From a virus (lineage: Duplodnaviria; Caudoviricetes), in the IMG/VR virus record IMGVR_UViG_3300033067_000444, positions 1-53,835 of that record: a stretch of 53,835 nt of DNA; one strand, given 5' to 3'. The notes below the pieces were generated by a model. It saw only the letters and a list, made by a program, of their open reading frames with translations. It had not been told where the DNA came from and did no database searches. Within the stretch, counting starts at the first letter, position 1. Each line of letters begins with the position of its first letter. The position numbers and the translations under genes were made by a program. Of this stretch, positions 1-53,835 are shown one piece after another.

Positions 1-3000
1 CACGGTGCGCTACTTCCCGGCTTAATCTTACCATTGCGATTGTCACGGATAACAGACCCGCCGCCCATGTCCATACCATCAGGATTGACCTTGGTAGTGG
101 GCAGTTCACCCAACGCCGCCTTAACCTTATCGCTTTGCTCGGATAACGGCTTATCCCACAGTAGATATTCGTCTTGTTCGGGAGCTAGTTCAACTTCGTA
201 GAGTCTGCCTTTTTCTTTTTTATATTCAAGAACAGGTCTATCGCCGTTATCTAAAAGCGACAATGCATCTCTAGCAACAGCCTTGATGCTCTTACTGCCG
301 CCGTAGTTGGCTACGTCAAGAAGGCTTTCTCTGGTATTTTCAACATTTCCTGATTCTTGATTTAATATGTAAGCGAGATAATGTTCTGGCACATCAGTAT
401 TAAGTAATTCGCCGTTTACATAATTCTCACCTGTTGTTAGTTTTTCTTTGTAGAATTCAGCAACATCCCTGCTCTCGGCAAAATAATGCCCGTAACCATA
501 AGCTTGTGCACCCTCGCCCGTACCGATCTTGCTGGTATCGAACTTATTGTGATCGTGCGGGGAACCGTGGAACGCTTTCTGGTCGAGCAACGAACCCCCA
601 GGCATTCCTACCTCGTTACCCGTGATACCGAACCACTCCAACGTTTTACGAAAATCGTCTTTGATCTGCTGCGGTGCCTCTGGCCTGGTGGCCATTTCGT
701 TCAATGCTTCAAGGTAGAAGTGACCGCCTTCATGGATCACGGAGGACAGATCGGAACCGTCGAGCAAGGTCATCGTGAACGTGTTTGGATTAAATCCAGC
801 ACGGTTGCCTTGGAACAACGGCAATCCCTGCATGATCTTGTCACGCATTTCTGGTGTGATATCGAGGGAGGGCTGCTCTCCGGCTTTGCTTGGGTCTGTA
901 GGCAGTTCATGCTGCGCGATCGCGTCTTGCGCCTCCGCGTAGGTATCGAAAGTAGCCGCTCTGTTCTCGCTAGAAGTCCATACCCCTGTGGTAGGATTCT
1001 TCAGATACATACCCGCGCTTTCTTGAAATACTCTGAGTTTTCCGTCTTCTCCTTCGACAGTTCGTAATATGTTCTTTGTTTCTCCTGTCATGTTCAAAGG
1101 GGTTACCTTGCCCCCTCCCAGTTTCTTCGAGACATCGTTCACGACTTGCGGAACAATACCGTCGTAGAAGGCTTTCATACCCTCACCGCCTACCTTCAGG
1201 TCGAGACCTTCCAACTTCACTGGGTAATCTCGTTCCCTGTTTATCCTCTCTAGCGCAGCTTGAACCGCCTCGTCCTCCGTTGCGTATCTGCCCGTGAAGG
1301 GTTTTCCGTGTAGTTGACCGGGAGGGATGACCGTAAAAGGTCTGTCCTTATCACTCTGCGGGTCTAAGGATATGTCATACCCATCAGGTAACGCGGTTAC
1401 CGGTTTGTCTTCAGTCTCGACTAGTTCGACTACCTTATTCGCTATTTCCTTGCCGATTACATCCGGTAATTTGTCCTTGGTGTAATTACCTGCCAATACT
1501 TTTTCTTCATTGTTGTCGAAGACTTGTATGTCGTAGGTGTCCCCTGTTCCGCGTCGCGCTTCTATGCTCTGTATTTGTTTACTCAAATCGTAACGCGCAG
1601 CCTGCTGCTCGCCTGTAGTCCACGCGATCTTGTCGAAACCGTTTTCGGCTGCGTAGCGCATGAGACGTTTTACGGCAAGGGCTGTCCATGATTTCGTGTT
1701 CTGCACGAAAGGGCCGGAAGGGGTGCTACCTCTGACTTTCTCCCTTAGTTCCGCACGGCGTTTGTTAACTGTCAGTAACTCTGCTTCGATAGTAGTTCTC
1801 TTGCTTACAGATACCGTGTATACCTTGTCGCCTAACTCTTTCGCTTTGCCGTCTAGTGCTCTAAGTTCCTCCTGTTCTTGCGGTGTCAGACTGGCGAACC
1901 CCTTATCCCGCCCTTGTTGCGCCCAGTCGGATTGTATCTCTTCGACGAATAGGACTTTCTGCCCGTTTGCCTTTCTTTCATTTACGCGAACATGTGCGAG
2001 GATATTGGGCTGGTTGAAATGTGATGAGCGAAACCTCACATCTGCGGTTACGGCTTGCGGTATTATCGCTGCTCTGGCCTCTTCCTCCGTCTTGTACGAC
2101 TGTATACGCTCACCGCCCGAGAACAGTCCCCATCTTCCGCTATCTAATTTCCTTACTTCCTGCGAAGCCGCAAACTTCTTGGCAGGCAACGTAAGCAGTA
2201 ACTCGCGGTAGTTCCCGCCGCCTGGTAGGACGTAGTTATCAAATTTTGTTTCACTGAATTGCGACGATCCACGGCTTACCCGTTCGAGAGCTTCTTGCAA
2301 AGTGTCGAAGGTTACCCGCCCGGTGAAGCCTGGTACGTTTATCTCGTACTGCCCATCTTCGATCTGTATTATCTCGCCCAATGAGCCATAGTTCTGCCCT
2401 TCAGGGTCATCGGATCTGTAGAGGGTGTAAATCTCTGGCTGGTCTTCGTATTCCTGCACCGCAATCGGTGTCGCCGTACCGCCTAACACTGTCTCGTCAA
2501 TCCGCACCCCGTTCTCACGAACAAAGTTCTCGATATCGGCAACGGGTACTTTGCCTTCCTGAGTGTCGAGCCAGTCCATCAAGCCGACTGCTTCAATTTC
2601 TTCCTTCTTGAATTTACCTTCTTTCTGCCGTGCTTCGATCCACGACTTAGCCTGTTCCGGTTTGATGTTTCCATCCTTACCGGCTACCTTCCGTAAGTTC
2701 GGTATCTCACGTTCGAGTGCTGAATAGAAAGCGGACTGTTTCAAGATATTCGGATCACTGGAAAAGTCGCCGTTGTTGCCTATCGCGGATTTGATTTGAT
2801 CGGGATCGAATGCTATCCAAGATTCCACATTTTCATCAGTGTCCGGGTCGCGCTCAACTATGACAGCCCCGTCATAGCCCAATTCTTTTAACTTGCTGAC
2901 GAAGAAACTGCCCTCGTCTTCTTCATCAAACATGCCCCATATCTGATCTGTGGATATGTTACGCATTAATCTAGGGTTGATTCCCTTCTCAGTTAATGCT

Positions 3001-6000
3001 TCTATAACAACGTCATCGATGAATCCTTTTGTAAGATCGATAACATTACGCATCTTCAGATACACCGGCATTACGTTAGCGTCTCGTGCAGAACCTCCTT
3101 GAACGCTAAAGCCTTCCGCGAATTTCTTATCTTGAGTAAAGAACATCCCCGCGCGGCGAGTATCCCAGGTGCCAAACTCGTTTGAATTAGCGCCAGGTGA
3201 TCCCACGACAAACTCGTTGAAGTCCCCTTTAGTGCCATGGTAAAAAACTAAGGGCGGTGCCATCTTTCTGTCACCACGGCTGCTCGTAGGCCACTGTCTC
3301 GATTCACTGTCTCCAAACCACTTCCAGAAATTACGAATTCCTTCTTCTGTTGGGTAGATTGGTCTGCCTTCACTGTTCAACGTGGTACGTTCTATCCCGT
3401 CAACGTTTAGGGTTTCGGGTAGTTTCGCTGTTTGAAAGAAGGTGTCGTAAGCCCTGCTATTGAATCTCTTAGACAAGGGTACTACATTTCCTTCATCGTC
3501 ATAGGTCACTGCGTCCAGTAATTTTCTATTGTTCTTTGTGTTCTTGTATGCGTACTCTTTGCCATCATCGTAACCGAGTTCGTTTATAGAATTGGCGTCC
3601 CACCATAAATCTTTCAGTTCTACCCGCTGCGCTATTATCCTGTAACCACCTGGGATACTTTCACCCTCCAGCTTCGCGTATTCTCTGGATGGGCTTACCC
3701 AATCACCGTTTCGTATGAAGTCATCTTTAACATTCTTAGGTACTGACCGGAATACCGCTATACTTCGCGCCTTTTTCTCGAGCGCTCTGTTTACGGTGTA
3801 AAAGGAATTTCGCTCAGTAACGTCGTTTTGGTAGTAATGCGGATGGGTCCAGTAGTCGTCAGGTACGATACCTGCATCCTTTATAGTAGCGAGGTTATAG
3901 TCCTCACGATTAGGAGCTTGATGCATCATCCGGTATTCGCTACCTGAGAGATACCCCTTGTCCTTGGCAGCCTCGTACACCATTTCTTGCGCTCGAACCA
4001 TGTCCCCGTCTGCTACTGCTTTCAAGTAATCTGCGTCAATCTTTTGGTTCTTCGCTGACTGCTCCAGCCCCCCGTCTTCGATCTGCATCTTCGAGAAATT
4101 CAGCGGCAGGCGTGTATATAATTCAGAAGGTAGTATCCCCTCCTTGGCAGCGTTGACCGCATAGAATTCACGAAACGGTACAGCGTAGACCGCATTTACA
4201 GCACGGTTGAAACGTTTTGCGGAGTTCATACCTGTAAGTATCTTGTCGTGAACTTCCTGAGCATCACGCGCGAAAGCCTCGACTTTGTTCTCGTGCGCTT
4301 TCAGGTACTCCGTGTAATCTTTACCGTCGTTCTGTGGCTTCGCTGCGAATTCTTCCCGTGTTAACACCGGTTGTGTCGTGTTGATAATCTCTTTCGCTTT
4401 CTCCGCAAAAATCTCTTTCTGCTGCTGGAAGAATGTTTGTGATTCTGAATATGTCATGCCTTCTGGATCGGTACGCAATTGGTTCAGGATCATCGGTTCC
4501 AGCTTGGAGCCTGCCAGGTATGTGGCATAGTCCTCTATCGGTATGCGAACTTCTCCGCCGGTTGCGAGTGCCGTCTGTAAGTCCCTTGCCACTACTGGCA
4601 TGTTCTTGATGAATTCTTCCGGTTTGATTCCAGATTGTTGCAGGGACTCTTCCAAGTGCTTCGCGTCAACGAACACCTCCTTGATTCCGCTGTGTTCGTC
4701 GGCCATCGTCTTGACAAACTCTTTGAATGCGGAAGGTGATTCCTTGCGGAGTTTATTGTTGACGATTTCCTCCGACCATTTCTGTAACGCGGCTTGTTGT
4801 TCTTCCGCACTGACTGCTTTGCCGATGTTGTTCAAGTGTGCGTCTGCTGCTTTTTTCAAAGCGTCGTCAGTAGAAGCGCCTTGCTTCCTTGCGGGTACGC
4901 CTGCCTGTACCGCTGCGCCCATCGTACCGCCGGTTACAATACTCAACGCCGCTGCTTCGGGTACTCCCTCATCCCAAGGTTTACCCAGTGCGATGTTCTG
5001 GAAGATTTGCTCAGTGACTCCTTGGGGTAGCTCTTCCACTATCCCCTCGGATACGAACCCTCCTGCCAATCTTGCAGCCAAGGAGAGCGGTACGTTTGAC
5101 TGTTGCATCTTACCGATAACTTTTTCTCTCAGTTTTCCTGTTGCAAGTAGTATGTCGGGGTCTTCTATCCCTATACGTTGCGCGAACTGTGCTCCGGCTG
5201 CGCTTATGAGCGTACCGATTACCCCTGTACCCCACGCCAACGCCGCTCCTTTTGCGTCGAGTTCCTTGTCGGGGGATTGTGTTCTTATCTGTTCTGCTGC
5301 GCTCCCTGCCATCGTTAAACCTTCGCCTATAGGCACAGCGACAGCGGCAGGTACGAAGGGCATCAAGGCGCGAGCGTACACGCTACCAAGGTACATGCTT
5401 GGAAGACTCACGCCTACTAATTCTACTACTGCCGCAGGGTTCTTAACGGCGGCCTCTATCGTCCCGAGAAAACCCTTCGCGTTCTCTACCTCCTTCAAGG
5501 CAGCTTGCATCTCGGGGGTGTACATGTCCGTCAGCGTCTTCGATATCTTGGGGAAATCTATACCGTTAGCTTCCAATGTTTTGCCTAAACCTCCCAAGTC
5601 GGCAGGATTCAGATCCGCTATACCTACCGCGCTCTGTGTAAGCATCGTCAGCCCCTTCGCCAACATGATGGGTGTGTCTTCTGTGGCGCTCCTGAAGAAC
5701 GTTTCAAGAGTCTTCAAGTGCCCAATGTCTTTACCAACCAGTTCGGAATTACCTTGTACCCCGAGGTACTTGGCCACTGCCGGGAAGTTTTTGATTAAAT
5801 CTTCGGGGTCATGTTCTTTGTAGAAAGCGGTATCTTCAACCTGGGGGGTGACAAGACCAGGGTTAACCCCTGTCTTCGCTGCTACGTCACGGCGGTGCGC
5901 TGCCAGTGCTGTGTCTGACTTGATACCTTTGCGAATGGCCAGACCTAGAACATCGGCTTCCACCTGCCTCGGTGTCGGGCCCGTGTCAACTGGTTGAAAT

Positions 6001-6191
6001 TCTGGTACGGGCTTGCCTTCCAATACCGCAAGAGACGCGGCTACGTCGTCGGGGATTCCAGTTTTCTGTTGCGTGATATCCTTACGGATTATCGGCGCAG
6101 CGGGTATTTTGTCCAAAGGCTTCGCGGTATTCGCACTTGATTCAAGAAACGACAACGACGCTGCAACGTCGTCGGGTATTGTTTTCGCCAT
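1..6191 (-). CDS. Giant ejected/internal virion polyvalent protein, 5' part (continues through the junction to 49929; ~3,365 aa total)
   Basis: Manual translation from ATG 6191 (MAKTIPDDVAASLSF...) stays open to position 1. Contains an ART-like module (FRSVP..GDWVSPSREYA), an ART-PolyVal-like module (YHGT 3242-3231, GMFFT, GYDGAV), an EEIQSDW domain (1943-1923), a HEGGH zincin motif (734-720) and a HGSPH ART-like module (569-555). Position after two internal virion genes matches T7 gp16/Bbp10-like genes. Confidence 0.9.
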   Translation of the reverse strand, partial: MAKTIPDDVAASLSFLESSANTAKPLDKIPAAPIIRKDITQQKTGIPDDVAASLAVLEGKPVPEFQPVDTGPTPRQVEADVLGLAIRKGIKSDTALAAHRRDVAAKTGVNPGLVTPQVEDTAFYKEHDPEDLIKNFPAVAKYLGVQGNSELVGKDIGHLKTLETFFRSATEDTPIMLAKGLTMLTQSAVGIADLNPADLGGLGKTLEANGIDFPKISKTLTDMYTPEMQAALKEVENAKGFLGTIEAAVKNPAAVVELVGVSLPSMYLGSVYARALMPFVPAAVAVPIGEGLTMAGSAAEQIRTQSPDKELDAKGAALAWGTGVIGTLISAAGAQFAQRIGIEDPDILLATGKLREKVIGKMQQSNVPLSLAARLAGGFVSEGIVEELPQGVTEQIFQNIALGKPWDEGVPEAAALSIVTGGTMGAAVQAGVPARKQGASTDDALKKAADAHLNNIGKAVSAEEQQAALQKWSEEIVNNKLRKESPSAFKEFVKTMADEHSGIKEVFVDAKHLEESLQQSGIKPEEFIKNMPVVARDLQTALATGGEVRIPIEDYATYLAGSKLEPMILNQLRTDPEGMTYSESQTFFQQQKEIFAEKAKEIINTTQPVLTREEFAAKPQNDGKDYTEYLKAHENKVEAFARDAQEVHDKILTGMNSAKRFNRAVNAVYAVPFREFYAVNAAKEGILPSELYTRLPLNFSKMQIEDGGLEQSAKNQKIDADYLKAVADGDMVRAQEMVYEAAKDKGYLSGSEYRMMHQAPNREDYNLATIKDAGIVPDDYWTHPHYYQNDVTERNSFYTVNRALEKKARSIAVFRSVPKNVKDDFIRNGDWVSPSREYAKLEGESIPGGYRIIAQRVELKDLWWDANSINELGYDDGKEYAYKNTKNNRKLLDAVTYDDEGNVVPLSKRFNSRAYDTFFQTAKLPETLNVDGIERTTLNSEGRPIYPTEEGIRNFWKWFGDSESRQWPTSSRGDRKMAPPLVFYHGTKGDFNEFVVGSPGANSNEFGTWDTRRAGMFFTQDKKFAEGFSVQGGSARDANVMPVYLKMRNVIDLTKGFIDDVVIEALTEKGINPRLMRNISTDQIWGMFDEEDEGSFFVSKLKELGYDGAVIVERDPDTDENVESWIAFDPDQIKSAIGNNGDFSSDPNILKQSAFYSALEREIPNLRKVAGKDGNIKPEQAKSWIEARQKEGKFKKEEIEAVGLMDWLDTQEGKVPVADIENFVRENGVRIDETVLGGTATPIAVQEYEDQPEIYTLYRSDDPEGQNYGSLGEIIQIEDGQYEINVPGFTGRVTFDTLQEALERVSRGSSQFSETKFDNYVLPGGGNYRELLLTLPAKKFAASQEVRKLDSGRWGLFSGGERIQSYKTEEEARAAIIPQAVTADVRFRSSHFNQPNILAHVRVNERKANGQKVLFVEEIQSDWAQQGRDKGFASLTPQEQEELRALDGKAKELGDKVYTVSVSKRTTIEAELLTVNKRRAELREKVRGSTPSGPFVQNTKSWTALAVKRLMRYAAENGFDKIAWTTGEQQAARYDLSKQIQSIEARRGTGDTYDIQVFDNNEEKVLAGNYTKDKLPDVIGKEIANKVVELVETEDKPVTALPDGYDISLDPQSDKDRPFTVIPPGQLHGKPFTGRYATEDEAVQAALERINRERDYPVKLEGLDLKVGGEGMKAFYDGIVPQVVNDVSKKLGGGKVTPLNMTGETKNILRTVEGEDGKLRVFQESAGMYLKNPTTGVWTSSENRAATFDTYAEAQDAIAQHELPTDPSKAGEQPSLDITPEMRDKIMQGLPLFQGNRAGFNPNTFTMTLLDGSDLSSVIHEGGHFYLEALNEMATRPEAPQQIKDDFRKTLEWFGITGNEVGMPGGSLLDQKAFHGSPHDHNKFDTSKIGTGEGAQAYGYGHYFAESRDVAEFYKEKLTTGENYVNGELLNTDVPEHYLAYILNQESGNVENTRESLLDVANYGGSKSIKAVARDALSLLDNGDRPVLEYKKEKGRLYEVELAPEQDEYLLWDKPLSEQSDKVKAALGELPTTKVNPDGMDMGGGSVIRDNRNGKIKPGSSAP

Positions 6192-13018: not shown

Positions 13019-13073
13019 GTTATTCTCCTAAAGATTTTTCAAGAAATCCCCTACACTGTAAGGGATTGTTCGA

Positions 13074-17479: not shown

Positions 17480-19042
17480 TTAATGTGCGTATCGTTTACC
17501 ACGTTGTATCACAGGATTACCCCGTTGTCTATCCCATCCGCCCATAATGTTCGCTTGTTTGATCCCTTTGTAGTACGCCATGATAACTGCGTCCCCTTCA
17601 TCCGTGGATCTTCCTAGTCTACCGCAAACTTCTTCCTTACTCTCAGCAATCAATACCGCCCCGTCGCCGTGTCCTTTTACCTTGTATTTCGGTGCTGATA
17701 AGTCCGCTTTGAGGGTGACACTCGGAGGCAAAGCAACTGGTGACCCTCCGGGTTGTGAGGGATCGAGTGCTTCGCGAAACTTCCACAGGGCTTCGGTTCG
17801 TATGTTACTGAATCCGAATCGGTTTTCACGGGATCTAGCTCGTGTGGCCTTGACTCCCATATACCCCGCACATGTTATCTGGTTAGCTGCTAGTTGTGCG
17901 TAGCAGTCAGCGCCCCATCCGCCACCCACGTCAACAATCACCATCGCGTCATCACGTCGCATCGCTACGACTCTACCCGCTGCCTTCTTCGGATCGTCTA
18001 CTTCATTGCCTTTTATCTTCAGCAATGGCGCGAACCAGTGATCGTGCCTGCACGCTACGACAAAGTTATCCTTGGCAATCGCCACGTCAACCCCGATAGC
18101 GCACATAGGTATCCCGACAGGGGGTTGTGGTTTCCATCGTTGTTGCGCCTCGACAATCCACTCCGTAGGGATTATCTGGTAGGGATCATCCTGTAGTGTC
18201 GTGCCGAAGTTACCATCTCGGTACGCAGCACGTAATTCTGCGGGAAGTGCGTCGAGTGAAGCCCGGTAATTCGTGTCGCGTAAATCGGGATTGTCGTTTA
18301 ATTCTGCGGATATAAATGTGCGGGAGCGTGCCAGTACGGGCTTTCCGCCGAGGTTATGTGGTCCTCGCCCATCAACTTCCACCTCTTCACCGTCTGGTCC
18401 TGTCGTGTACCAACGCAATTCTCCAGGTTGTGCAGGGTTCGGGTGTTGTGGGTCAAGCCATGCCGCCCATCTTCTAAGTACCCACAAACCCTCAGGTCTT
18501 GTCGGTGGGTTACCCGCCGCGATTACCCGGCATCGTTGCCCGGGAATGACAGATCGGTTCCACCCGATAATGAATTCATATTGTGTTTGCGTAAAATCGG
18601 ATACTTCATCGAAGCCGTAGAAGTCTCTCGCATGTCCTTTATATCCTTGCTTGTCTTCCTCAGTCTGGCACCCACCAAAAACGATTGTCTTACCGACTTT
18701 GGGAAGTCGCCATATTCCTAGTTGTCCGTTAAGACCTGTTCTGTGCCCGAAGATGTCCGCAGCGCGATCTATCAACCCACTCACTTCCTTGTTCAGTCTA
18801 CGCAACAACAGCGAACTCTGGTGGTTGTTTTTAGCCACACCAATAAGCAGGTCACTTTTTCCACCACCTGCTTGTCCGCCGTAGAACAGTTCATCGGCTT
18901 CGCAATAATACGCTTCGGTCTGTGGACCAGGATTAGGCACCCAATCCAGATAGGCTAACTCAGGCAATGCGAGACCTTCTATCTCTGCCTGAGTCTCAGG
19001 GTCGGACTCCGCAAGTAGCGCGGTTAGTTCCGCCAGATCCAT
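17480..19042 (-). CDS. terL: Terminase large subunit
   Basis: Walker A GGQAGGGKS, Walker B YGFDE, motif III AGNP, nuclease IGVDVA and D..DA. Confidence 0.93.
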   Translation of the reverse strand: MDLAELTALLAESDPETQAEIEGLALPELAYLDWVPNPGPQTEAYYCEADELFYGGQAGGGKSDLLIGVAKNNHQSSLLLRRLNKEVSGLIDRAADIFGHRTGLNGQLGIWRLPKVGKTIVFGGCQTEEDKQGYKGHARDFYGFDEVSDFTQTQYEFIIGWNRSVIPGQRCRVIAAGNPPTRPEGLWVLRRWAAWLDPQHPNPAQPGELRWYTTGPDGEEVEVDGRGPHNLGGKPVLARSRTFISAELNDNPDLRDTNYRASLDALPAELRAAYRDGNFGTTLQDDPYQIIPTEWIVEAQQRWKPQPPVGIPMCAIGVDVAIAKDNFVVACRHDHWFAPLLKIKGNEVDDPKKAAGRVVAMRRDDAMVIVDVGGGWGADCYAQLAANQITCAGYMGVKATRARSRENRFGFSNIRTEALWKFREALDPSQPGGSPVALPPSVTLKADLSAPKYKVKGHGDGAVLIAESKEEVCGRLGRSTDEGDAVIMAYYKGIKQANIMGGWDRQRGNPVIQRGKRYAH

Positions 19043-21243: not shown

Positions 21244-21543
21244 TCATGCGTCGAGCGAATATAGCTTCACTTCACCCGCGGCGGCTGCGTCCACTATCGC
21301 GATGTCTTTATCCGTCTCGATGGGTTTTAAAGCTTCGCCTGGTAGCATGTAATACCATCCGATTTGCGGTGTACCCTTGAGTACCTGGGTAAGTTTTAAT
21401 TCTTCAGGTTTAAGTACACTGACTTCCATAGTGTAGTAATCAACGCCCTCGAGCGTAGTCTGTAAGTCACTGATGGACAGTACCTCGTCGGCTATCTTAC
21501 CGTCGGGTAATTCGAGGACGTTGTTTACAATTTTCTTAGCCAT
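21244..21543 (-). CDS. Hypothetical protein
   Basis: 99-aa ORF, protein-like composition, tiled. Confidence 0.6.
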   Translation of the reverse strand: MAKKIVNNVLELPDGKIADEVLSISDLQTTLEGVDYYTMEVSVLKPEELKLTQVLKGTPQIGWYYMLPGEALKPIETDKDIAIVDAAAAGEVKLYSLDA

Positions 21544-21551
21544 GAATCGTG

Positions 21552-21860
21552 CTACCCAAAAAGTAATTTGTTAATCGTTATTTCTTCGAGCATGGTGTAC
21601 GCGGCTTGCCACAAGTCCGGTAGCTCGCTTAACCGTTCTTCGTCCGTGTTCTTCTCGAAGTCCTTACCGTTCCACAGCACCCAAAAACTTGTGTACTTCA
21701 CCCGTTGAGGGTCGTGGCAGGCGACGTTAAAAACTGTCGCATGGCGGTACTGGTGCAGTGGTTGATCCAACTCGAACAAGAAAAATTCGGTCTGGTCGTG
21801 GGTGCCCAAACTGCCGTGTGGTATCCATCTTCCATCCGTGAGGTAGTGCTCGTTCGTCAT
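21552..21860 (-). CDS. Hypothetical protein
   Basis: 102-aa ORF with GGAG SD. Confidence 0.6.
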   Translation of the reverse strand: MTNEHYLTDGRWIPHGSLGTHDQTEFFLFELDQPLHQYRHATVFNVACHDPQRVKYTSFWVLWNGKDFEKNTDEERLSELPDLWQAAYTMLEEITINKLLFG

Positions 21861-21897
21861 GCTCTTCTCCGTCTGTCGTTCGACGAAACCCTGGCCT

Positions 21898-22217
21898 TGG
21901 GTCTCGTGAATTCCGTGTTTATCCGTCTATCGTAACCCGTCAAGGTTAAGCCCAAAACGGTTGTGGTGCTCGTTTGTCCAGTTGACGCTGGCTTCCCTAG
22001 CTCCCGAAGTCGTGAACCCGTCAAGGTACGCCGTGCTTCGTTGTGGCCTTCGCTCTGCCAGTTGACGCTGGTTTCGCTTGTGCCCGGTGCGTATTGCCTG
22101 TTTTGCGAGACCCACCTCGACTTTTCTACACCGATGGATTGTTCGGTACGTGACCCCCGCCCTGCTTTGCTCAAACCAATTCTTTCCGAGACTTTTCCTT
22201 GTTGCTTCACAATCCAT
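21898..22217 (-). ncRNA. Candidate structured RNA with tandem kissing-loop modules
   Basis: Two 80-nt repeats, each with hairpins CCAG-CGUCAA-CUGG and ACC-UUGACG-GGU; 9-bp closing stems 21898-21906/22106-22114 and 22134-22142/22209-22217; starts at the predicted TSS of a consensus promoter. Confidence 0.6.
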
Positions 22218-22224
22218 GACCGAC

Positions 22225-22253
22225 ATCGTAGCGGAAAACTTTTTACGTGTCAA
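22225..22253 (-). promoter_or_regulatory. Strong sigma70-like promoter
   Basis: TTGACA-17 nt-TACGAT with an AT-rich upstream tract. Confidence 0.75.
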
Positions 22254-22366
22254 GCGGCGAATAAAAATAATTCTCCGATTGTGCTATCGAGAACTTAACA
22301 CGAATTAAATTCTACTTCACTCCAATCTCGAATCAAAATCGTCGAGGTTTGTCTGAGCATGCAAGG

Positions 22367-22380
22367 AGGGGGGCCCCCCT
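22367..22380. repeat. Perfect 14-bp palindrome AGGGGGGCCCCCCT; candidate packaging/terminus site
   Basis: GC-rich palindrome within a ~700-bp AT-rich non-coding gap between divergent operons, near terS. Confidence 0.45.
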
Positions 22381-22971
22381 AAAGGGGGTCCCACCCCTAG
22401 CACTGCACATACTTCACTTTACCTGTTTTTTCTTGCATCCAAACCCTTTACCCATAACGCTTTGCGCGAAATCACGCCTGTCAGTTTTTAACTCCCACAC
22501 ACCCTCGGATAAAATCCTACAAAAATTCGCAGTTATCCACAAGGCAAACAACGTATCCATGCCACTTTACACGAATTACGTGCTACTTTTTCCAACGAGA
22601 ATATAATTCTTGCTTCTTGTTATCCTACAAGAATGTGAATTCTACTTGGTCTTTTTCTCTTTATAATCTTCGACATGCACGGTGCATAAGTGCCCGTGCA
22701 TCCGTGCATAATTGAAACTCTCTTACATTTTACTTACAAGAATTCTGTACAGATTAATTTTTAATCAGAATATAAAAGCTAGTTGACTGCTATCTAATCA
22801 GAATAAAAATCACGTTGCTCAATAATTAATCAAAAGCGCCGTGCAAAACACGGAATTATCAATCATAGTTTTTATCATTAGATAATTAAAAGATAGTACA
22901 AACAAGATGTTGCGAATTGATTTCTGTGATACTATTGACACCAATTAAATTCTGTGCCTACGGGGTATGTA

Positions 22972-46009: not shown

Positions 46010-46088
46010 CTGTGCGTAGGCTAGTCAGGTCTAAGTCACTTGGTTTGGAACCAGGATATCGTAAGTTCGAATCTTACCGCACAGACCA
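46010..46088 (+). tRNA. tRNA-Pro (anticodon UGG)
   Basis: Cloverleaf: acceptor CTGTGCG/CGCACAG, anticodon arm CTTGG-TTTGGAA-CCAGG, T arm GTAAG-TTCGAAT-CTTAC, A73, encoded CCA. Confidence 0.92.
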
Positions 46089-49928: not shown

Positions 49929-52900
49929 TTAATCCTTTGGTGGCCCGAATAACAAAGCCGGTAATATTGAAGCGCCTTCTACGTCGCCGTTTTCTACCGC
50001 CATGATACCCTCGACGGTGTTATTGATTTGTCCCGCTGGATAGTGTAGCACAGCACCGGCCACGTTGTTAAGGCTTTTGAACATTGGGAGATCGGCTTCG
50101 CCTTGGTTAACCTGTACGCCTGCCTTATACAGATCACCAAAGAAACGCAACCCGGCAGGGCCTTGGTAGCCGTACTGGTCTCCGCCAGTTGCCACGCCTA
50201 CCGCTGCGCCTATCTCACGCAACAAGATCATTTGCCCAAGCATGTAACTTATTTGTTCATTGGCTAGTTTCTTCGCCCAACATTCAAGGTCGTCTCCGCA
50301 ATTGCCTTTAATCGATTCCTTCAAAGCCACCGCGAACAAGACAGGGATCACGTTCAACACGATGAGGTTATTTGCCATCAACATAACTTCGGCAGGCTTC
50401 ATGAAATTCGTCTTGCGTACCGTCTCGATGTTCAAGTTGTACGTAGCGCTAAAATACGAATAGAAGTTCGTGAGTATCTTGTTCAGTGGTGAACCGCGTT
50501 GCACTCTGGCCAGATCTTTGGTCATACCGCTTGACTGCGAATCGATCACGGCCTGGTCTGCAAGGCGTACCGCGTGCTCCTCCATCGTTTTGCGTTGTGT
50601 TTCATCCACCGCGTTCTCGTAACCGACTTCTGCCAGTCCCTTATTGTACGCGCCAATCCACGTAGGAATGTCCACAGTGCGTTGCATCTTGCCGATTAAC
50701 CAGAAGTAACTAGCGGTGAGATTCGACACACCCTCGCCCGTTCTGAGTGTATTCAGGACTTCGTTAATCTCCCGGTTCATTGTCGTTGCACGATTCTTCA
50801 TGAACGTCGAGCGGCTATCGGCAAATTCTGCGGAGTCGTTTGGGCTGGTCAGGAATTGCAGAATACCCTGAGATACCCACTTCGGCCCGACGCGAACGTA
50901 TGATTGCGCCAAACCGGAAGGTTGCAGTAAAGCCGTCGTAACCCGCCAGCCCATACCGACAATCGTGGAACCCATACGCAACCGGTTGATAGCGGCCTCT
51001 GTTGCGTTCTTCGCAGGTGCGTCGCCCGTTGCAATGTCCATAACAGTGTCACGCATTTCTCGTAAAATCTCTGTACCGTAGTGCTCTCGTATCGGACTGT
51101 CAAGATGTCGCAGAACACGGTTAGCGTCTGTGAGCCAAGGCTGCCATGACAGGCGATGTATCACCTCGTTGATGTGCTGTGGGATCACGTTGAACGACAG
51201 TAACAGCGGCCTGCCGATAACTTGCTTCGAGCGTTCCTGCGTGTAACCGTTACGGGTAGCCGCCGCGCCGAATGCGCCTTTCATGCCCATCCGCAAATCG
51301 GTTACAGCTTCCAGTGACTCGCTGCGAGTAGAAAGTTCCGCGTCGTACTTGGCAGGGAAGTACCCGCCAGGGTACACACCAAACTTTGTTGTAACGGTAG
51401 CTGGTTCGATCCACAAAGGTTCTACCCCCGTCATCTTGCGTTCAAGAGCGGCAATTTGTTCCTTGTAAGTACCGACGTAATACCATGTGGCTTGCACGAA
51501 GTCCCACTCGGGTTTCGTCAGAGTGTCGAGGATGCTCTGTGCTTGAGTGATCGACAACGCTCGTCGTCCCGTAATCCCGCCGTCTAGTAGTCTTTGCCGG
51601 TTACCCTCGTTGCCCCAGTTCATCGCGAACATGATTCTCTGTTCATGCGTCATACTGATATCTGTACCAGGAACTAGACGCTTCTTGGCCGACAGGTTCA
51701 TGAAACCTTGATCGAGTTTTATCATTTTGAACAGAGAAGCAACTTTCTCCGCTGCTTGCTGCCGCATTTCGGTTTCCATGTCACCCGCTTCGTTCATCGC
51801 ACGAGCTAGCAAATTCCACATTGTTCCATTATCTTTGCCGCCATCCATCTCGCGGATGATCGAACTAAACTTGCGGTGCCCTGCGGTCATCTGCCGGAAC
51901 CACTGACCCGTCTTGCCGAGGGTGTCGGTCGGTGTCGCACGCTCTTCTACGGTACGGTTCGCGTTCTCATGTATCGAATACTCCGCTTCGGCTATGCGTT
52001 CGTTGAATTCTTTACGATCTTTGGCCGTGAGCAGTTTGTCCTTGTACCGGCCAAGGTGTTCGATTTGTTTGATCGTGTCCTTGAGTCCGCGCAATTCTTC
52101 AAGGGTCATATCCTTGTAGTTCTTGAGTTTCGATTTTTCGATTGTGTCCACGTCGATAGCAGGCTGGAACCCGTTTGCTTCTTGCTCTTCTATCCAGGCG
52201 GTCAAGGATTTGTTCTTGTCGACTTCCCGCAGGGGTAGATTCTTAAACTCGAAAGGCTTGAGTAAGTCAACGATTTGTTCTAAGTAATCGTGGTGGATCA
52301 CCTTGCCCAGTTTTCGATTGTCGAATTTGCGAACGTATTTCAGAATGCTGTCAACTTCGTTCTTCGCGTCACGTGCCACGGAGTACAGTTTGTTGTTAAG
52401 CAGTGCGGCTCTCTGTGCTTCGGCTGCACCAGCACGGTCTTTCGGCGCACGTTTCAATGCTTCCTTGTTCGCCTTTGTCTCAGCCCGTGCATACTGCCCT
52501 GGTCTGATATCGCGGATTGCTTTGCCTGCGATGGCCTGTTCCGCTGCTTGCCTGGCGGCTTTAACCAACTGCGAGGACGTGGCTGAGGTCTTGAGTAACA
52601 TCTTCAAACCGGTGGCCATGAATCGCGCTCTGGCCTCGTTGTGTACGGCTTCGTCTGCTGCTGCGCTTAATGCGTTGTCGTCAACCAGATCCCCGTATTG
52701 TTCAAGCATTCGTTTATCGACTTCAGCGGCTACCTTGTCGCGTGTTGGTTCGCTGTCGTTCAGTGCATTGATTAACGCTTCGCCGCTTGAGAATCCGGTT
52801 AACTGTGCGGCAAGATCGAGCGCGATACCATCTTCCGAAGTCATACCTCTCAATTTCTTCATATCGACGTTCGGCATCAGTTCCAAGACTTCGGCCTTGT

Positions 52901-53835
52901 TCAGTTTCGCCTTGACTTCTGCCTCGATCACTTGACCATCTTCGTTGACGTATTCACCTTTCGCGAAGTACGACTTGGCGCGTTCTACGGGTTCCTGTGC
53001 GATATCTTGTTCGACTTCAGTACGCAACATCTTGCGCTTGGTGCGTGCTTCGTTCTGTAAAGACTTGAGTGCTTTCGTCCGTGCGCCCGTCAACCATTTC
53101 ATGTCGCGGACACTTCGGGCATCCAGTTCGCTTGTCGCTTCATCGGCTGACCGTCTGCCTTCGTCAACGTATTCTTGAAACTGCTTATCGGTAACGCCTG
53201 CTTCTTCCGACGTGGCGAATAGAGGTGCGTAACTTCTCGCCTTCTGCGCTTCGGCTATCGCTTCATCCGAGGCGATCAAACGGTCGAACACTGCACGGAT
53301 ATCGTCGTTCAGTTTCCCCGCGAGTGGATTGTTCCGCAGGAATTCTTTCATCGACTTGTAAATGTTCAACATCCACGCACGGAAGCGCGCGAATACTGGC
53401 TGCATTTCAAGTGTCGGTGCCTTGCCCTCGAGTGCGTAACGCTCCCATGACTGCGCCCACTGTTCATGGTAAGGGCGTTTCTGGTCGAGGGTCATGTTGT
53501 TCCAGATTTCTTCTGGTGTTCTACCCGGTGGAAGTTGTCCTGGTTGTGGTGTTTCGCCGCCTTGGTAATACCTATCGGTGATTGTAATATCTTCATCAGA
53601 AAATATCACATAGTTGTAAGCACCCTCACCCTTGGCTCTGCTGGAACCGTCGAGGTATTTGATACCGCGAATGCCTAGCGAGTGAAGGTATTCGGAGGCG
53701 GCTCTTTGCGAGCCTTTGGTTGAAGTAAGTCTCGAATAGACATTCTCACCAGTGCTGTCCGTACCAAGATCCTTCGTCATACGATCAACGTCTTTCTGCG
53801 TCAGATCGAACCTTGAATCACCTGATACAAGTATC
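49929..53835 (-). CDS. Giant ejected polyvalent protein, 3' part (continuation of 6191..1)
   Basis: Frame is open from 53835 to the track's 53780 start. Contains the end of the HGSP module (GI.GIKYLD...NYVIF), the peptidase C-half (HEQWA..WE.Y..EGKAP) and a long helical C-terminus. Confidence 0.9.
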   Translation of the reverse strand, partial: ILVSGDSRFDLTQKDVDRMTKDLGTDSTGENVYSRLTSTKGSQRAASEYLHSLGIRGIKYLDGSSRAKGEGAYNYVIFSDEDITITDRYYQGGETPQPGQLPPGRTPEEIWNNMTLDQKRPYHEQWAQSWERYALEGKAPTLEMQPVFARFRAWMLNIYKSMKEFLRNNPLAGKLNDDIRAVFDRLIASDEAIAEAQKARSYAPLFATSEEAGVTDKQFQEYVDEGRRSADEATSELDARSVRDMKWLTGARTKALKSLQNEARTKRKMLRTEVEQDIAQEPVERAKSYFAKGEYVNEDGQVIEAEVKAKLNKAEVLELMPNVDMKKLRGMTSEDGIALDLAAQLTGFSSGEALINALNDSEPTRDKVAAEVDKRMLEQYGDLVDDNALSAAADEAVHNEARARFMATGLKMLLKTSATSSQLVKAARQAAEQAIAGKAIRDIRPGQYARAETKANKEALKRAPKDRAGAAEAQRAALLNNKLYSVARDAKNEVDSILKYVRKFDNRKLGKVIHHDYLEQIVDLLKPFEFKNLPLREVDKNKSLTAWIEEQEANGFQPAIDVDTIEKSKLKNYKDMTLEELRGLKDTIKQIEHLGRYKDKLLTAKDRKEFNERIAEAEYSIHENANRTVEERATPTDTLGKTGQWFRQMTAGHRKFSSIIREMDGGKDNGTMWNLLARAMNEAGDMETEMRQQAAEKVASLFKMIKLDQGFMNLSAKKRLVPGTDISMTHEQRIMFAMNWGNEGNRQRLLDGGITGRRALSITQAQSILDTLTKPEWDFVQATWYYVGTYKEQIAALERKMTGVEPLWIEPATVTTKFGVYPGGYFPAKYDAELSTRSESLEAVTDLRMGMKGAFGAAATRNGYTQERSKQVIGRPLLLSFNVIPQHINEVIHRLSWQPWLTDANRVLRHLDSPIREHYGTEILREMRDTVMDIATGDAPAKNATEAAINRLRMGSTIVGMGWRVTTALLQPSGLAQSYVRVGPKWVSQGILQFLTSPNDSAEFADSRSTFMKNRATTMNREINEVLNTLRTGEGVSNLTASYFWLIGKMQRTVDIPTWIGAYNKGLAEVGYENAVDETQRKTMEEHAVRLADQAVIDSQSSGMTKDLARVQRGSPLNKILTNFYSYFSATYNLNIETVRKTNFMKPAEVMLMANNLIVLNVIPVLFAVALKESIKGNCGDDLECWAKKLANEQISYMLGQMILLREIGAAVGVATGGDQYGYQGPAGLRFFGDLYKAGVQVNQGEADLPMFKSLNNVAGAVLHYPAGQINNTVEGIMAVENGDVEGASILPALLFGPPKD

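What the first reader, a model, noticed from the sequence alone, without database searches (positions are those of the whole stretch)
21898..22253. Tandem kissing-loop RNA candidate upstream of the terminase genes (pRNA-like)
Seen: a consensus promoter (TTGACA-17-TACGAT, 22253-22225) whose predicted TSS (~22217) coincides with the first base of a 9-bp stem (22217-09/22142-34). A second 9-bp stem (22114-06/21906-898) encloses two modules with an 80-81 nt period. Each module keeps hairpin CCAG-CGUCAA-CUGG (22071-58, 21991-78), a CCACAAC box (22046-40, 21966-60) and hairpin ACC-UUGACG-GGU (22027-16, 21946-35), while the linkers have diverged. The two 6-nt loops are exact complements. Established: loop-loop pairing builds the phi29 pRNA ring and oligomers of large phage-associated ncRNAs; I know of no pRNA for TerS/TerL phages. 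Inference: an undescribed RNA able to kiss within a module, between modules or between molecules, possibly linked to packaging or to control of the late operon. Alternative: four inverted TTGACG DNA boxes bound by TerS. G-U extension of the outer stem works better on the plus strand, so the strand is not settled.
Basis: partly seen in the sequence, partly recalled or inferred. Interest (0 to 1): 0.88.

Follow-up and report, generated by a model that had tools for sequence, protein, structure and literature searches.

The report
Folded leader RNA before phage late genes
An uncultured tailed phage starts its long packaging-and-structure operon with a conserved, non-coding, folded RNA leader of about 357 bases that holds two copies of a two-hairpin unit whose loop tips are exact complements, a design found in no RNA catalogue and likely to control expression of the late genes.

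Summary
The sequence features are real: a sigma-70-type promoter, two adjacent ~80-nt modules, four small hairpins, and hexaloops CGUCAA/UUGACG that are exact complements. One full-length relative was found (L173, a 50-kb contig of a metagenome-assembled genome). Against it the promoter (32 of 36) and leader (291 of 353) are far better kept than near-neutral sites (third codon positions 57 of 102; upstream spacer 60 of 101 plus 34 gap columns). No reading frame is kept. Stems change by compensatory or G-U steps that fit only the minus, late-gene sense strand. The consensus fold beats shuffles on minus (z -2.5, 4 of 200) but not on plus (z +0.5). This settles the strand and favours RNA over DNA boxes. 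The 9-bp outer stem fails; a local hairpin fits better. All four loops are invariant, so kissing is plausible but untested. It is not pRNA: no Rfam match, and the phage has TerS and TerL. My reading is a new cis-acting structured leader of the late operon, put-like in layout, with mechanism unproven. This scan's unchecked notes report kissing two-hairpin leaders in other phages.

The parts
22225..22253 (-). Sigma-70-type promoter TTGACA-17-TACGAT of the late operon
   Evidence: 10 of 12 consensus matches; 32 of 36 bases of 22218-22253 are identical in L173, while the 101 aligned bases just upstream are 59% identical with 34 gap columns; in a third lineage (run X6) similarity stops at 22257, 4 nt above the -35 hexamer.
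22134..22217 (-). 5'-terminal stem-loop of the predicted transcript (9-bp stem 22217-09 / 22142-34). The predicted start is the A at 22217.
   Evidence: I3, 100% complementary; 7 of 9 pairs are kept in L173, one through a U-A to G-C double change, and 2 are broken. The start site is inferred from promoter spacing and was not measured.
22085..22133 (-). Hairpin H0 (closing stem CGGUGU / GCACCG)
   Evidence: consensus fold columns 93-141, with one U-G to U-A change; 44 of 49 bases identical in L173.
22005..22084 (-). Module A. It consists of extended hairpin H1a (tip CCAG-CGUCAA-CUGG at 22071-22058), the linker ACAA, and extended hairpin H2a (tip ACC-UUGACG-GGU at 22027-22016).
   Evidence: 75 of 80 bases identical in L173. 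H1a changes C-G to U-A, H2a changes A-U to G-U, and both loops are unchanged.
21923..22004 (-). Module B, a diverged tandem copy of module A. H1b tip lies at 21991-21978 and H2b tip at 21947-21934.
   Evidence: The basal stem of H2 differs from module A at 3 of 4 pairs, and all 3 changes are compensatory. H1b changes C-G to U-A in L173; a U-G intermediate plus a new C-G pair occurs in run X6.
21883..21907 (-). Local 3' hairpin H5 (ACGAGACCC / GGGUUUCGU).
   Evidence: 9 of 9 pairs are kept in L173, through 1 double change and 3 single changes that all give or resolve G-U on the minus strand. Against: one search shows 21862-21920 replaced by 139 other letters in the X6 relative.
21858..21870 (-). 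Shine-Dalgarno GGAG (21870-21867) and the ATG (21860-21858) of the first late gene
21552..21860 (-). First gene of the operon (p102, 102 aa, function unknown). It was used as the handle to find relatives.
   Evidence: relatives at 85% and 80% identity. (cluster of 11 members). (L173). No Pfam or PHROG family. Model at pLDDT 72 with no convincing solved fold.
22345..22446 (-). Second conserved structured element, a long GC-rich hairpin, upstream of the promoter. Whether it belongs to the same system is unknown.
   Evidence: 28 predicted pairs, of which 3 are kept through double changes (G-C to A-U).

Best explanation
The element is the ~357-nt untranslated 5' leader of the phage's late mRNA. 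The late operon encodes p102, p99, TerS, TerL, portal, capsid and at least 15 kb more. The leader is transcribed on the minus strand by host RNA polymerase from a conserved sigma-70-type promoter. It folds into a row of hairpins: a 5'-terminal stem-loop, hairpin H0, two adjacent ~80-nt modules, and a hairpin just before the ribosome-binding site. Each module consists of two bulged hairpin arms of similar length (about 15-17 nt per strand) joined by a 4-nt linker. The hexaloops of the two arms, CGUCAA and UUGACG, are exact complements.

Inferred: the two loops of a module, or of neighbouring modules, kiss and lock the leader into a compact fold. Inferred further: this fold acts in cis on expression of the long operon. 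The most likely routes are making RNA polymerase resistant to pausing and termination, as the two-stem put RNA of phage HK022 does, or shielding the long untranslated leader from Rho and RNases.

My odds for each step are as follows. Functional structured RNA on the minus strand: about 0.75. Loop-loop kissing: about 0.45. Antitermination specifically: about 0.2.
For: Selection (window against L173). Promoter 32 of 36 identical. Leader 291 of 353 (module A 75 of 80, H0 44 of 49, module B 67 of 81). For comparison, third codon positions of the next gene are 57 of 102 identical, and the spacer upstream of -35 is 60 of 101 with 34 gap columns.

Not coding. The two hairpin-1 copies lie 80 nt apart, so they fall in different frames. 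Indels of 1 and 2 nt interrupt the leader. The sense-strand ORF that starts at the same TTG stops after 60 codons in L173, against 108 in the window. The 117-aa ORF has no homologue, with 0 of 10 candidates scoring. None of 9 ORF translations from the region is among about 15 billion proteins.

Structure. All 14 pairs of the four hairpins, defined from the window alone, are kept in L173. They carry 5 changed bases: two C-G to U-A double changes and one A-U to G-U change. H5 keeps 9 of 9 pairs and the 5' stem 7 of 9, each with one double change. Across the four module copies, 97.7% of 88 cells pair, against 17-40% when partners are slid. Four pairs change on both sides, three of them in the basal stem of hairpin 2.

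Strand. The G-U states in H2a and H5 and the U-G intermediate in H1b of run X6 would be A-C mismatches on the plus strand. Consensus energy is -80.2 kcal/mol on minus and -62.3 on plus. The z-score against column shuffles is -2.52 on minus (4 of 200 as good) and +0.49 on plus (134 of 200).

Loops. None of 24 loop bases changed, while 62 of 353 leader bases did; this gives P about 0.01 under a uniform rate. Complementary hexaloop pairs arise in 4 of 5000 shuffles.

Spread. Near-identical pieces covering parts of the element occur in contigs of two further studies: X2, 21817-22053, 3 differences; X5, 21937-22196, 2 differences.

Layout. HK022 put RNAs are about 70 nt, consist of two bulged stem-loops in a V shape, lie downstream of sigma-70 promoters and act over 10 kb or more (PMC9378689, passages read).
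Against: Only two full-length sequences and fragments of a third lineage were available, so covariation rests on few events. The two hairpin-1 changes may be one event spread by gene conversion. The structures tested were partly derived from the same sequences.

The loops never vary, so nothing shows that they pair with each other. Invariant loops would fit a protein or RNA polymerase contact equally well. The folding model closes hairpin 2 with an extra U-G pair, which leaves a 4-nt loop; mean unpaired probability of the UUGACG loops is 0.30-0.58, against 0.76-0.92 for CGUCAA.

Single-sequence stability is ordinary. No transcript evidence exists, and the start site is predicted only. H5 and the region before the start codon are replaced in the X6 relative.

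More distant relatives lack the element. Of 38 loci with TerL at 37-65% identity, 0 match by blastn and 0 match the covariance model at E below 0.01. One of them, L126, instead carries DNA-type iterated boxes with a 79-nt period at the same place.

The module model does not detect put in HK022: best hit 10 bits, E 0.42. No excess of intrinsic terminators was seen in the operon: 22 found against 21 expected.
Confidence: 0.5

Rival explanations
1. The four TTGACG boxes are double-stranded DNA sites for a phage protein, either TerS at a pac or cos-type site or a transcription regulator. They would be arranged as alternating inverted boxes 37-44 bp apart, and the small palindromic flanks would be half-sites.
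For: The 6-bp core is invariant while the flanks vary. The same palindromic change, CCAG/CTGG to CTAG/CTAG, occurs in both copies, as expected for a dimer site. The element lies upstream of terS. A more distant relative, L126, has clear DNA-type repeats with a 79-nt period in the equivalent gap: AGCTGGCTCACTTGG twice, inverted copies, and a 9-mer three times. From my own knowledge, lambda cosB and the P1 and SPP1 pac sites consist of repeated boxes near the small terminase gene.
Against: Conservation and covariation extend well beyond the boxes. Basal stems 36-38 nt apart change at 3 of 4 pairs and stay complementary. One-sided changes give G-U on minus and A-C on plus. The consensus-fold signal is strand-specific. 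The element starts exactly at a conserved promoter and runs to the ribosome-binding site. It lies 730-890 bp and two genes away from terS, and three genes away in L173.
Confidence: 0.15
2. The hairpins are RNA operators for a phage-encoded RNA-binding regulator, for example the product of the first downstream gene. The regulator would bind the displayed loops to repress or time late-gene translation or to antiterminate in the manner of N and boxB. Loop complementarity would then be incidental.
For: There are four displayed, invariant loops on covarying stems. Two small genes of unknown function follow at once. The top, non-significant Foldseek rows for the p102 model are RNA-hairpin-binding coat proteins of PP7 and Qbeta: E 0.19-0.48, TM 0.22-0.26.
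Against: One protein would be expected to read one loop sequence, not a sequence and its complement. The coat-protein resemblance is noise: no Foldseek match has E at or below 0.001, and by VIA-align the best hit is Aha1 at Z 6.2 with levivirus coats at Z 4.4-4.7 among unrelated folds. p102 is not arginine-rich.
Confidence: 0.12
3. It is a trans-acting or self-assembling RNA. Either the leader or a piece processed from it oligomerises through intermolecular loop-loop pairing, as a pRNA-like packaging RNA or as ROOL/GOLLD-type assemblies do. Or it acts as an antisense-type regulator on other copies of the same leader, like P4 CI RNA or P1 c4.
For: Two CGUCAA and two UUGACG loops per molecule allow head-to-tail or crosswise pairing between molecules (sequence). 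It sits at the head of the packaging genes. pRNA rings are built by intermolecular pairing of two loops (PMC5066667, passages read).
Against: There is no Rfam match to pRNA, ROOL, GOLLD or any other family. No terminator or evident processing site delimits a small RNA; the element runs straight into the ribosome-binding site. The phage has TerS and TerL. According to that review, pRNA is known only from phi29-like phages of about 20 kb with terminal protein. The equal arm lengths with a 4-nt hinge favour pairing within a module; this last point is inference.
Confidence: 0.08
4. It is a recent tandem duplication with no function of its own, so the hairpins and complementary loops are chance.
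For: Single-sequence folding energy is ordinary. The element is absent from more distant relatives.
Against: Leader identity is 82%, and 94% in module A, against 56-59% at near-neutral sites. All substitutions in the four hairpins preserve pairing. The two modules have diverged to 74% identity over the 47-nt repeat, yet keep the 14-mers exactly or with 1 mismatch.
Confidence: 0.05

Closest known systems
HK022 put RNAs (putL, putR), cis-acting RNA antiterminators
   Same: Each unit is about 70-80 nt. Each consists of two bulged stem-loops joined at their bases. Both lie in the transcribed leader downstream of a sigma-70 promoter at the head of a long phage operon, with two units per genome (PMC9378689, passages).
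   Different: The two units are tandem in one leader here, not at two separate promoters. The loops are complementary hexaloops, a feature not described for put in the passages I read. There is no detectable sequence or structure homology: model R1 on HK022 gives at best 10 bits, E 0.42. The activity is untested.
phi29 prohead RNA (pRNA, Rfam RF00044 as recalled)
   Same: It is a phage non-coding RNA with two loops that are Watson-Crick complementary and could link molecules, and it lies near packaging functions.
   Different: No Rfam hit. The phage has TerS and TerL and is 53.8 kb, not a ~20-kb protein-primed phage. The fold is a row of hairpins rather than a three-way junction. The element is an mRNA leader, not a free 120-174-nt RNA.
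Two-hairpin riboswitches that work by loop-loop kissing (guanidine-II / mini-ykkC)
   Same: Two small hairpins on one strand are separated by a variable linker, with conserved loops proposed to kiss in cis (abstracts of PMC5558903 and PMC7544219, listing).
   Different: Those loops are identical ACGR tetraloops and the motif controls guanidine genes. Here the loops are two different, mutually complementary hexaloops, the unit is duplicated, and the context is phage late genes. There is no Rfam hit.
Lambda PR'-tR' late leader (6S RNA) with Q antitermination
   Same: A strong host-type promoter is followed by a leader of a few hundred nt ahead of a >20-kb late operon (my own knowledge; compare the scan note e1-2912252).
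   Different: No intrinsic terminator closes the leader here, and no Q-like gene was identified in the proteins I scanned.
cosB / pac repeated TerS-binding boxes (lambda R sites, P1 and SPP1 pac)
   Same: Short boxes are repeated in alternating orientation upstream of the small terminase gene (my own knowledge).
   Different: The covariation is strand-specific and RNA-type, and the element is co-extensive with a promoter-to-RBS leader. It lies more than 700 bp from terS.

Membership tests
phi29-type pRNA | Matches the Rfam pRNA covariance model | tested here: not met
   whole window at gathering thresholds: only tRNA., 21800-22460 at E up to 10: 5 weak hits, none to pRNA and none inside 21861-22253.
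phi29-type pRNA | Phage of the phi29 type: ~20-kb protein-primed genome, with a packaging motor that lacks a small terminase | tested here: not met
   53,835-bp record. TerS PF03592 and a TerL PHROG are present. The definition comes from PMC5066667 passages.
phi29-type pRNA | Two loops complementary to each other that pair between molecules | tested here: inconclusive
   Complementarity is present at 6 of 6 bases in two copies each. Whether the pairing is intra- or intermolecular cannot be told from sequence.
phi29-type pRNA | Three-way junction with helix A bearing the ATPase-binding bulge | tested here: not met
   The consensus fold is a linear series of hairpins.
HK022 put RNA | About 70-nt unit of two bulged stem-loops | tested here: met
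   The modules are 80 and 82 nt, and each has two imperfect hairpins with covarying stems.
HK022 put RNA | Located in the transcript just downstream of a host-type promoter of a long operon | tested here: met
   Promoter found and conserved. The modules begin 133 nt after the predicted start. The operon runs to at least 6203.
HK022 put RNA | Sequence or structure homology to putL/putR | tested here: not met
   Model R1 searched over the HK022 genome with filters off: best 10 bits, E 0.42, with nothing significant. The test runs one way only, because no put model was available.
HK022 put RNA | Protein-independent antitermination through the RNA polymerase beta' zinc-binding domain | not testable with these tools
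   Needs in vitro transcription or reporter assays.
Guanidine-II (mini-ykkC) riboswitch | Two hairpins capped by identical ACGR tetraloops | tested here: not met
   The loops are CGUCAA and UUGACG. No Rfam hit. The definition comes from the abstract of PMC5558903.
TerS-binding pac/cos DNA boxes | Conservation confined to double-stranded boxes, symmetric between strands, with no requirement for distant complementarity | tested here: not met
   Distant stems covary. The wobble changes are strand-specific. The consensus-fold z-score is significant on the minus strand only.
TerS-binding pac/cos DNA boxes | Binding by TerS, or packaging ends at the site | not testable with these tools
   The contig is an arbitrary permutation, because a gene runs across its ends. 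There are no read-end data.

The most novel reading that the evidence does not exclude
The tandem modules are self-kissing RNA clamps that, without any protein, ride on host RNA polymerase and make it termination-resistant over more than 20 kb of late genes. That would be a second, unrelated class of put-type RNA antiterminator, one whose active fold is set by loop-loop pairing. An even bolder variant is that the same loops link leaders of different molecules into an assembly that couples late transcription to packaging in a TerS/TerL phage.
Probability: 0.12. Interest if true: 0.85.

Novelty: new variant of a known kind. Interest (0 to 1): 0.55.

Why it matters
Protein-free RNA control of transcription elongation is known from very few systems, put of HK022-like phages among them. 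Cis-kissing two-hairpin switches are known mainly from small riboswitches. Here a conserved, uncatalogued leader combines a consensus host promoter, a duplicated two-arm module with complementary loops, and a late operon of more than 20 kb, in a phage that shows no RNA polymerase of its own among the proteins I scanned.

If the fold controls elongation, stability or timing of late genes, it gives a compact and testable model: four 6-nt loops to mutate and compensate. It would show how phages that depend on host polymerase gate their structural genes. It would also add a new RNA family to annotate in wastewater and freshwater phage genomes.

If the reading is wrong and the boxes act as DNA, the site would mark the packaging or regulatory origin of an uncultured phage group.

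Tried and rejected
No known RNA family matches. Rfam at gathering thresholds finds only a tRNA. At E up to 10 over 21800-22460, the 5 hits are all below their thresholds and none lies inside 21861-22253.

Searches for homologues that found nothing:
- blastn of 21500-22950 against 50,697 phage records: no match.
- TerS protein against IMG/VR: 0 relatives.
- p102 alignments against IMG/VR: 0 relatives.
- p102 alignment against JGI metagenomes: 0 relatives.
- Exact 14-mer scan of IMG/VR: 118 or more single-copy hits, of which 80 loci were listed. None had two copies, so I treated them as chance and did not examine them further.
- Two-hairpin patterns in IMG/VR: 0 hits.
- The same pattern in JGI metagenomes: 15 loci. 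All are chance, and none aligns with the window beyond 14-18 nt.
- tblastn of P0007 against the phage records: no match.
- Earlier-findings look-up by sequence: nothing.

More distant relatives lack the element. In the 38 TerL-relative loci, blastn gave one 22-nt chance match at E 0.16. Covariance model R1 gave no hit below E 0.01; the best was 16.6 bits, E 0.071.

R1 on HK022 found nothing significant.

The ORFs over the element have no homologues and are not in the protein collection.

The p102 model has no Foldseek match at E of 0.001 or below. The best VIA-align hit is Aha1 at Z 6.2, within the range the tool itself calls common. The weak coat-protein rows were rejected as noise.

Terminator scan of the operon gave 22 sites against 21 expected, so it says nothing.

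RNA evidence: no RNA holder is listed for the stretch. All four runs laid were DNA-type contigs, so expression could not be addressed. Parts of the stretch without cover in those runs say nothing.

The read-laying output left 60 differences unshown. The states of hairpins 1a and 2a in the most divergent X6 contig therefore remain unknown. Supplementary files of the papers were not opened.

I considered and rejected three other readings:
- N4-type single-stranded DNA hairpin promoters. The giant end-spanning gene is a polyvalent protein with an ART domain, not an RNA polymerase.
- -35 decoys. Neither TTGACG on the late-gene (minus) strand has a suitably spaced -10 hexamer downstream (read).
- A leaderless ORF starting at 22217. 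Its first ~22 codons are in a different frame in L173, and it stops at codon 48 there.
Full report
Setting. The window is a complete-looking 53,835-bp virus record. Its minus strand carries a long late block: a 102-aa gene (p102, 21552-21860), a 99-aa gene, TerS (PF03592, 20514-21194), TerL (17480-19042), a T7-type portal (PF12236), a major head protein and more. A three-gene block starts at 22954 on the plus strand. The finding lies in the 1.1-kb gene-free gap between these divergent blocks. The nearest cultured relatives by TerL are phages of Proteobacteria: Acidovorax AP1 at 41% and Bordetella BPP-1 at 38%. Seventeen of the 29 genes I checked have a Shine-Dalgarno motif. A host with sigma-70-type promoters is therefore plausible.

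The observation.
- the promoter;
- the two perfect 9-bp inverted repeats and the 80- and 81-nt periods;
- the duplicated hairpin 14-mers, which are unique to this locus in the window;
- the complementary hexaloops.

Complementary hexaloop hairpin pairs arise in 4 of 5000 shuffles of the leader, and four such pairs arise in none. Two things did not hold up. Folding energy of the single sequence is ordinary on both strands, and the outer stem fails the comparative test described below.

Finding relatives. DNA and protein searches of phage records, IMG/VR and JGI metagenomes found no copy. Thirty-eight loci with TerL at 37-65% identity lack the element by blastn and by a covariance model of the module. 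The first downstream gene gave the handle. p102 has close relatives at 80-85% identity, in a cluster of 11 members. One of them lies on a 50,038-bp contig in the species-representative genome collection (L173). L173 is syntenic from p102 to TerL, whose protein is 92% identical, and it aligns with the window through the whole gap region. Contigs of public runs add fragments. Near-identical pieces occur in two other studies (X2, X5), and a more divergent lineage occurs in a third (X6).

Selection without coding. Against L173 the identities are as follows:
- promoter: 32 of 36;
- leader: 291 of 353;
- module A: 75 of 80;
- third codon positions of p102: 57 of 102;
- spacer just above the -35 hexamer: 60 of 101, plus 34 gap columns.

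In X6, similarity also stops 4 nt above the -35 hexamer. No reading frame survives. The hairpin-1 copies are 80 nt apart. Small indels shift every frame. The ORFs differ between the two genomes. The ORF translations have no relatives and are absent from the protein collection.

RNA, and on which strand. I first tested only the helices defined from the window alone. All 14 pairs of the four small hairpins survive in L173. Both copies of hairpin 1 changed C-G to U-A, and hairpin 2a changed A-U to G-U. In X6, hairpin 1b shows the U-G intermediate plus a new C-G pair at its base. The 5' stem keeps 7 of 9 pairs with one double change. The outer stem also keeps 7 of 9 pairs, but 2 are broken. Three of the four changes in its 3' arm are instead accommodated by a local hairpin (21907-21883), which keeps 9 of 9 pairs through one double change and three wobble-type changes.

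Comparing the four module copies, 97.7% of 88 cells pair, against 17-40% for slid partners. The basal stem of hairpin 2 differs between modules at 3 of 4 pairs, and all 3 changes are compensatory. That structure was drawn from these same sequences, which flatters it. Every G-U state listed is an A-C mismatch on the plus strand. The consensus fold is -80.2 kcal/mol on minus and -62.3 on plus. Its z-score against column shuffles is -2.5 on minus (4 of 200) and +0.5 on plus (134 of 200). I conclude, with about 0.75 confidence, that this is a structured RNA on the late-gene sense strand. It spans the region from the predicted start at 22217 to the ribosome-binding site at 21870.

Anatomy. The order is: a 5'-terminal stem-loop (22217-22134), hairpin H0 (22133-22085), module A (22084-22005), module B (22004-21923), a short linker, hairpin H5 (21907-21883), then GGAG and ATG. 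Each module is two bulged arms of 15-17 nt per strand joined by ACAA, or GAAA in one copy. The CCACAAC box is this joint. It is not strictly conserved.

The loops. None of the 24 loop bases differs between the window and L173, while 17.6% of leader bases do. The module-B loops are also unchanged in X6 where it is covered. So the loops are functional, but kissing cannot be tested by covariation with the data at hand. In favour of kissing are the exact 6-of-6 complementarity, the mismatched bases flanking the complementary hexamers, and the similar arm lengths hinged by 4 nt; these last points are my inference from the sequence. Against it, the thermodynamic model closes hairpin 2 with a U-G pair, which leaves only four loop bases free. 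I put kissing at about 0.45.

Function. The element matches no Rfam family. It fails three of four pRNA criteria. It resembles HK022 put RNA in size, two-arm architecture and position after a host-type promoter at the head of a long operon. However, the module model finds nothing in HK022, so this is an analogy, not membership. There is no terminator at the leader's end and no excess of terminators in the operon. My best guess is a cis-acting leader that conditions transcription elongation or protects the long untranslated 5' region. I put antitermination itself at about 0.2. The DNA-box rival keeps about 0.15, partly because a distant relative (L126) has plainly DNA-type repeats with a 79-nt period at the same place. 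An RNA-operator reading keeps about 0.12. The p102 model gave no usable fold match.

Context from this scan. Unchecked notes report promoter-plus-folded-leader designs before late blocks, and kissing two-hairpin leaders before nuclease genes, in other phages. I did not test these. They suggest that the kind is recurrent, so I class this as a new variant rather than a new category.

Verdict. The RNA reading is supported and the strand is settled. The pRNA analogy and the outer stem are rejected. Kissing and mechanism remain open. Interest is 0.55.

Noticed in passing
window 22345-22446 (minus strand): A second conserved structured element lies upstream of the late promoter. It is a long GC-rich hairpin with an outer stem: 28 predicted pairs, of which 3 are kept through G-C to A-U double changes against L173. 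The block at 22415-22446 is almost invariant but is not in a conserved frame. It may be a terminator or insulator, or part of a longer RNA.
   Followed up: partly
window 3-6191 and 49929-53834 (minus strand): One giant gene runs across the ends of the record (2063 + 1301 codons open at both ends). The contig is therefore an arbitrary cut of a circular or permuted assembly. The protein carries ART-PolyVal and LPD22 polyvalent-protein domains.
   Followed up: partly
L126 3330-3610: A relative with TerL 64% and TerS 36% identical has a different repeat set at the equivalent position upstream of its late genes: a 9-mer three times in tandem, an 18-mer twice at 79-nt spacing, and inverted copies of GGCTCACTT. 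These look like DNA-type iterated boxes.
   Followed up: no
L173 (whole locus): The only full-length relative sits in a genome bin labelled as a Bacteroidota genus. However, the phage uses Shine-Dalgarno sites in 17 of 29 genes and a TTGACA/TACGAT promoter, and its nearest cultured TerL relatives infect Proteobacteria. The contig is probably mis-binned.
   Followed up: partly
L173 4306-4725: About 420 bases lie between the p102 and p99 homologues in L173. They have no counterpart in the window, where the two genes are 8 nt apart.
   Followed up: no
window 21862-21920 and 22258-22369: In the divergent lineage of run X6, the 59 bases before the start codon are replaced by 139 other letters, and 112 bases between the upstream hairpin and the -35 hexamer are skipped. 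The variable parts of the region are thus exactly those outside the promoter and the modules.
   Followed up: no
window 46010-46088: A tRNA-Pro (UGG) gene is the only Rfam or ARAGORN hit in the window. A first-reader note describes a tRNA-like RNA just upstream of it; I did not examine that.
   Followed up: no
window 13048-13065 (minus strand): A weak terminator-like hairpin lies directly after the major head protein gene. This is a common phage arrangement. It is not above chance in this scan.
   Followed up: no
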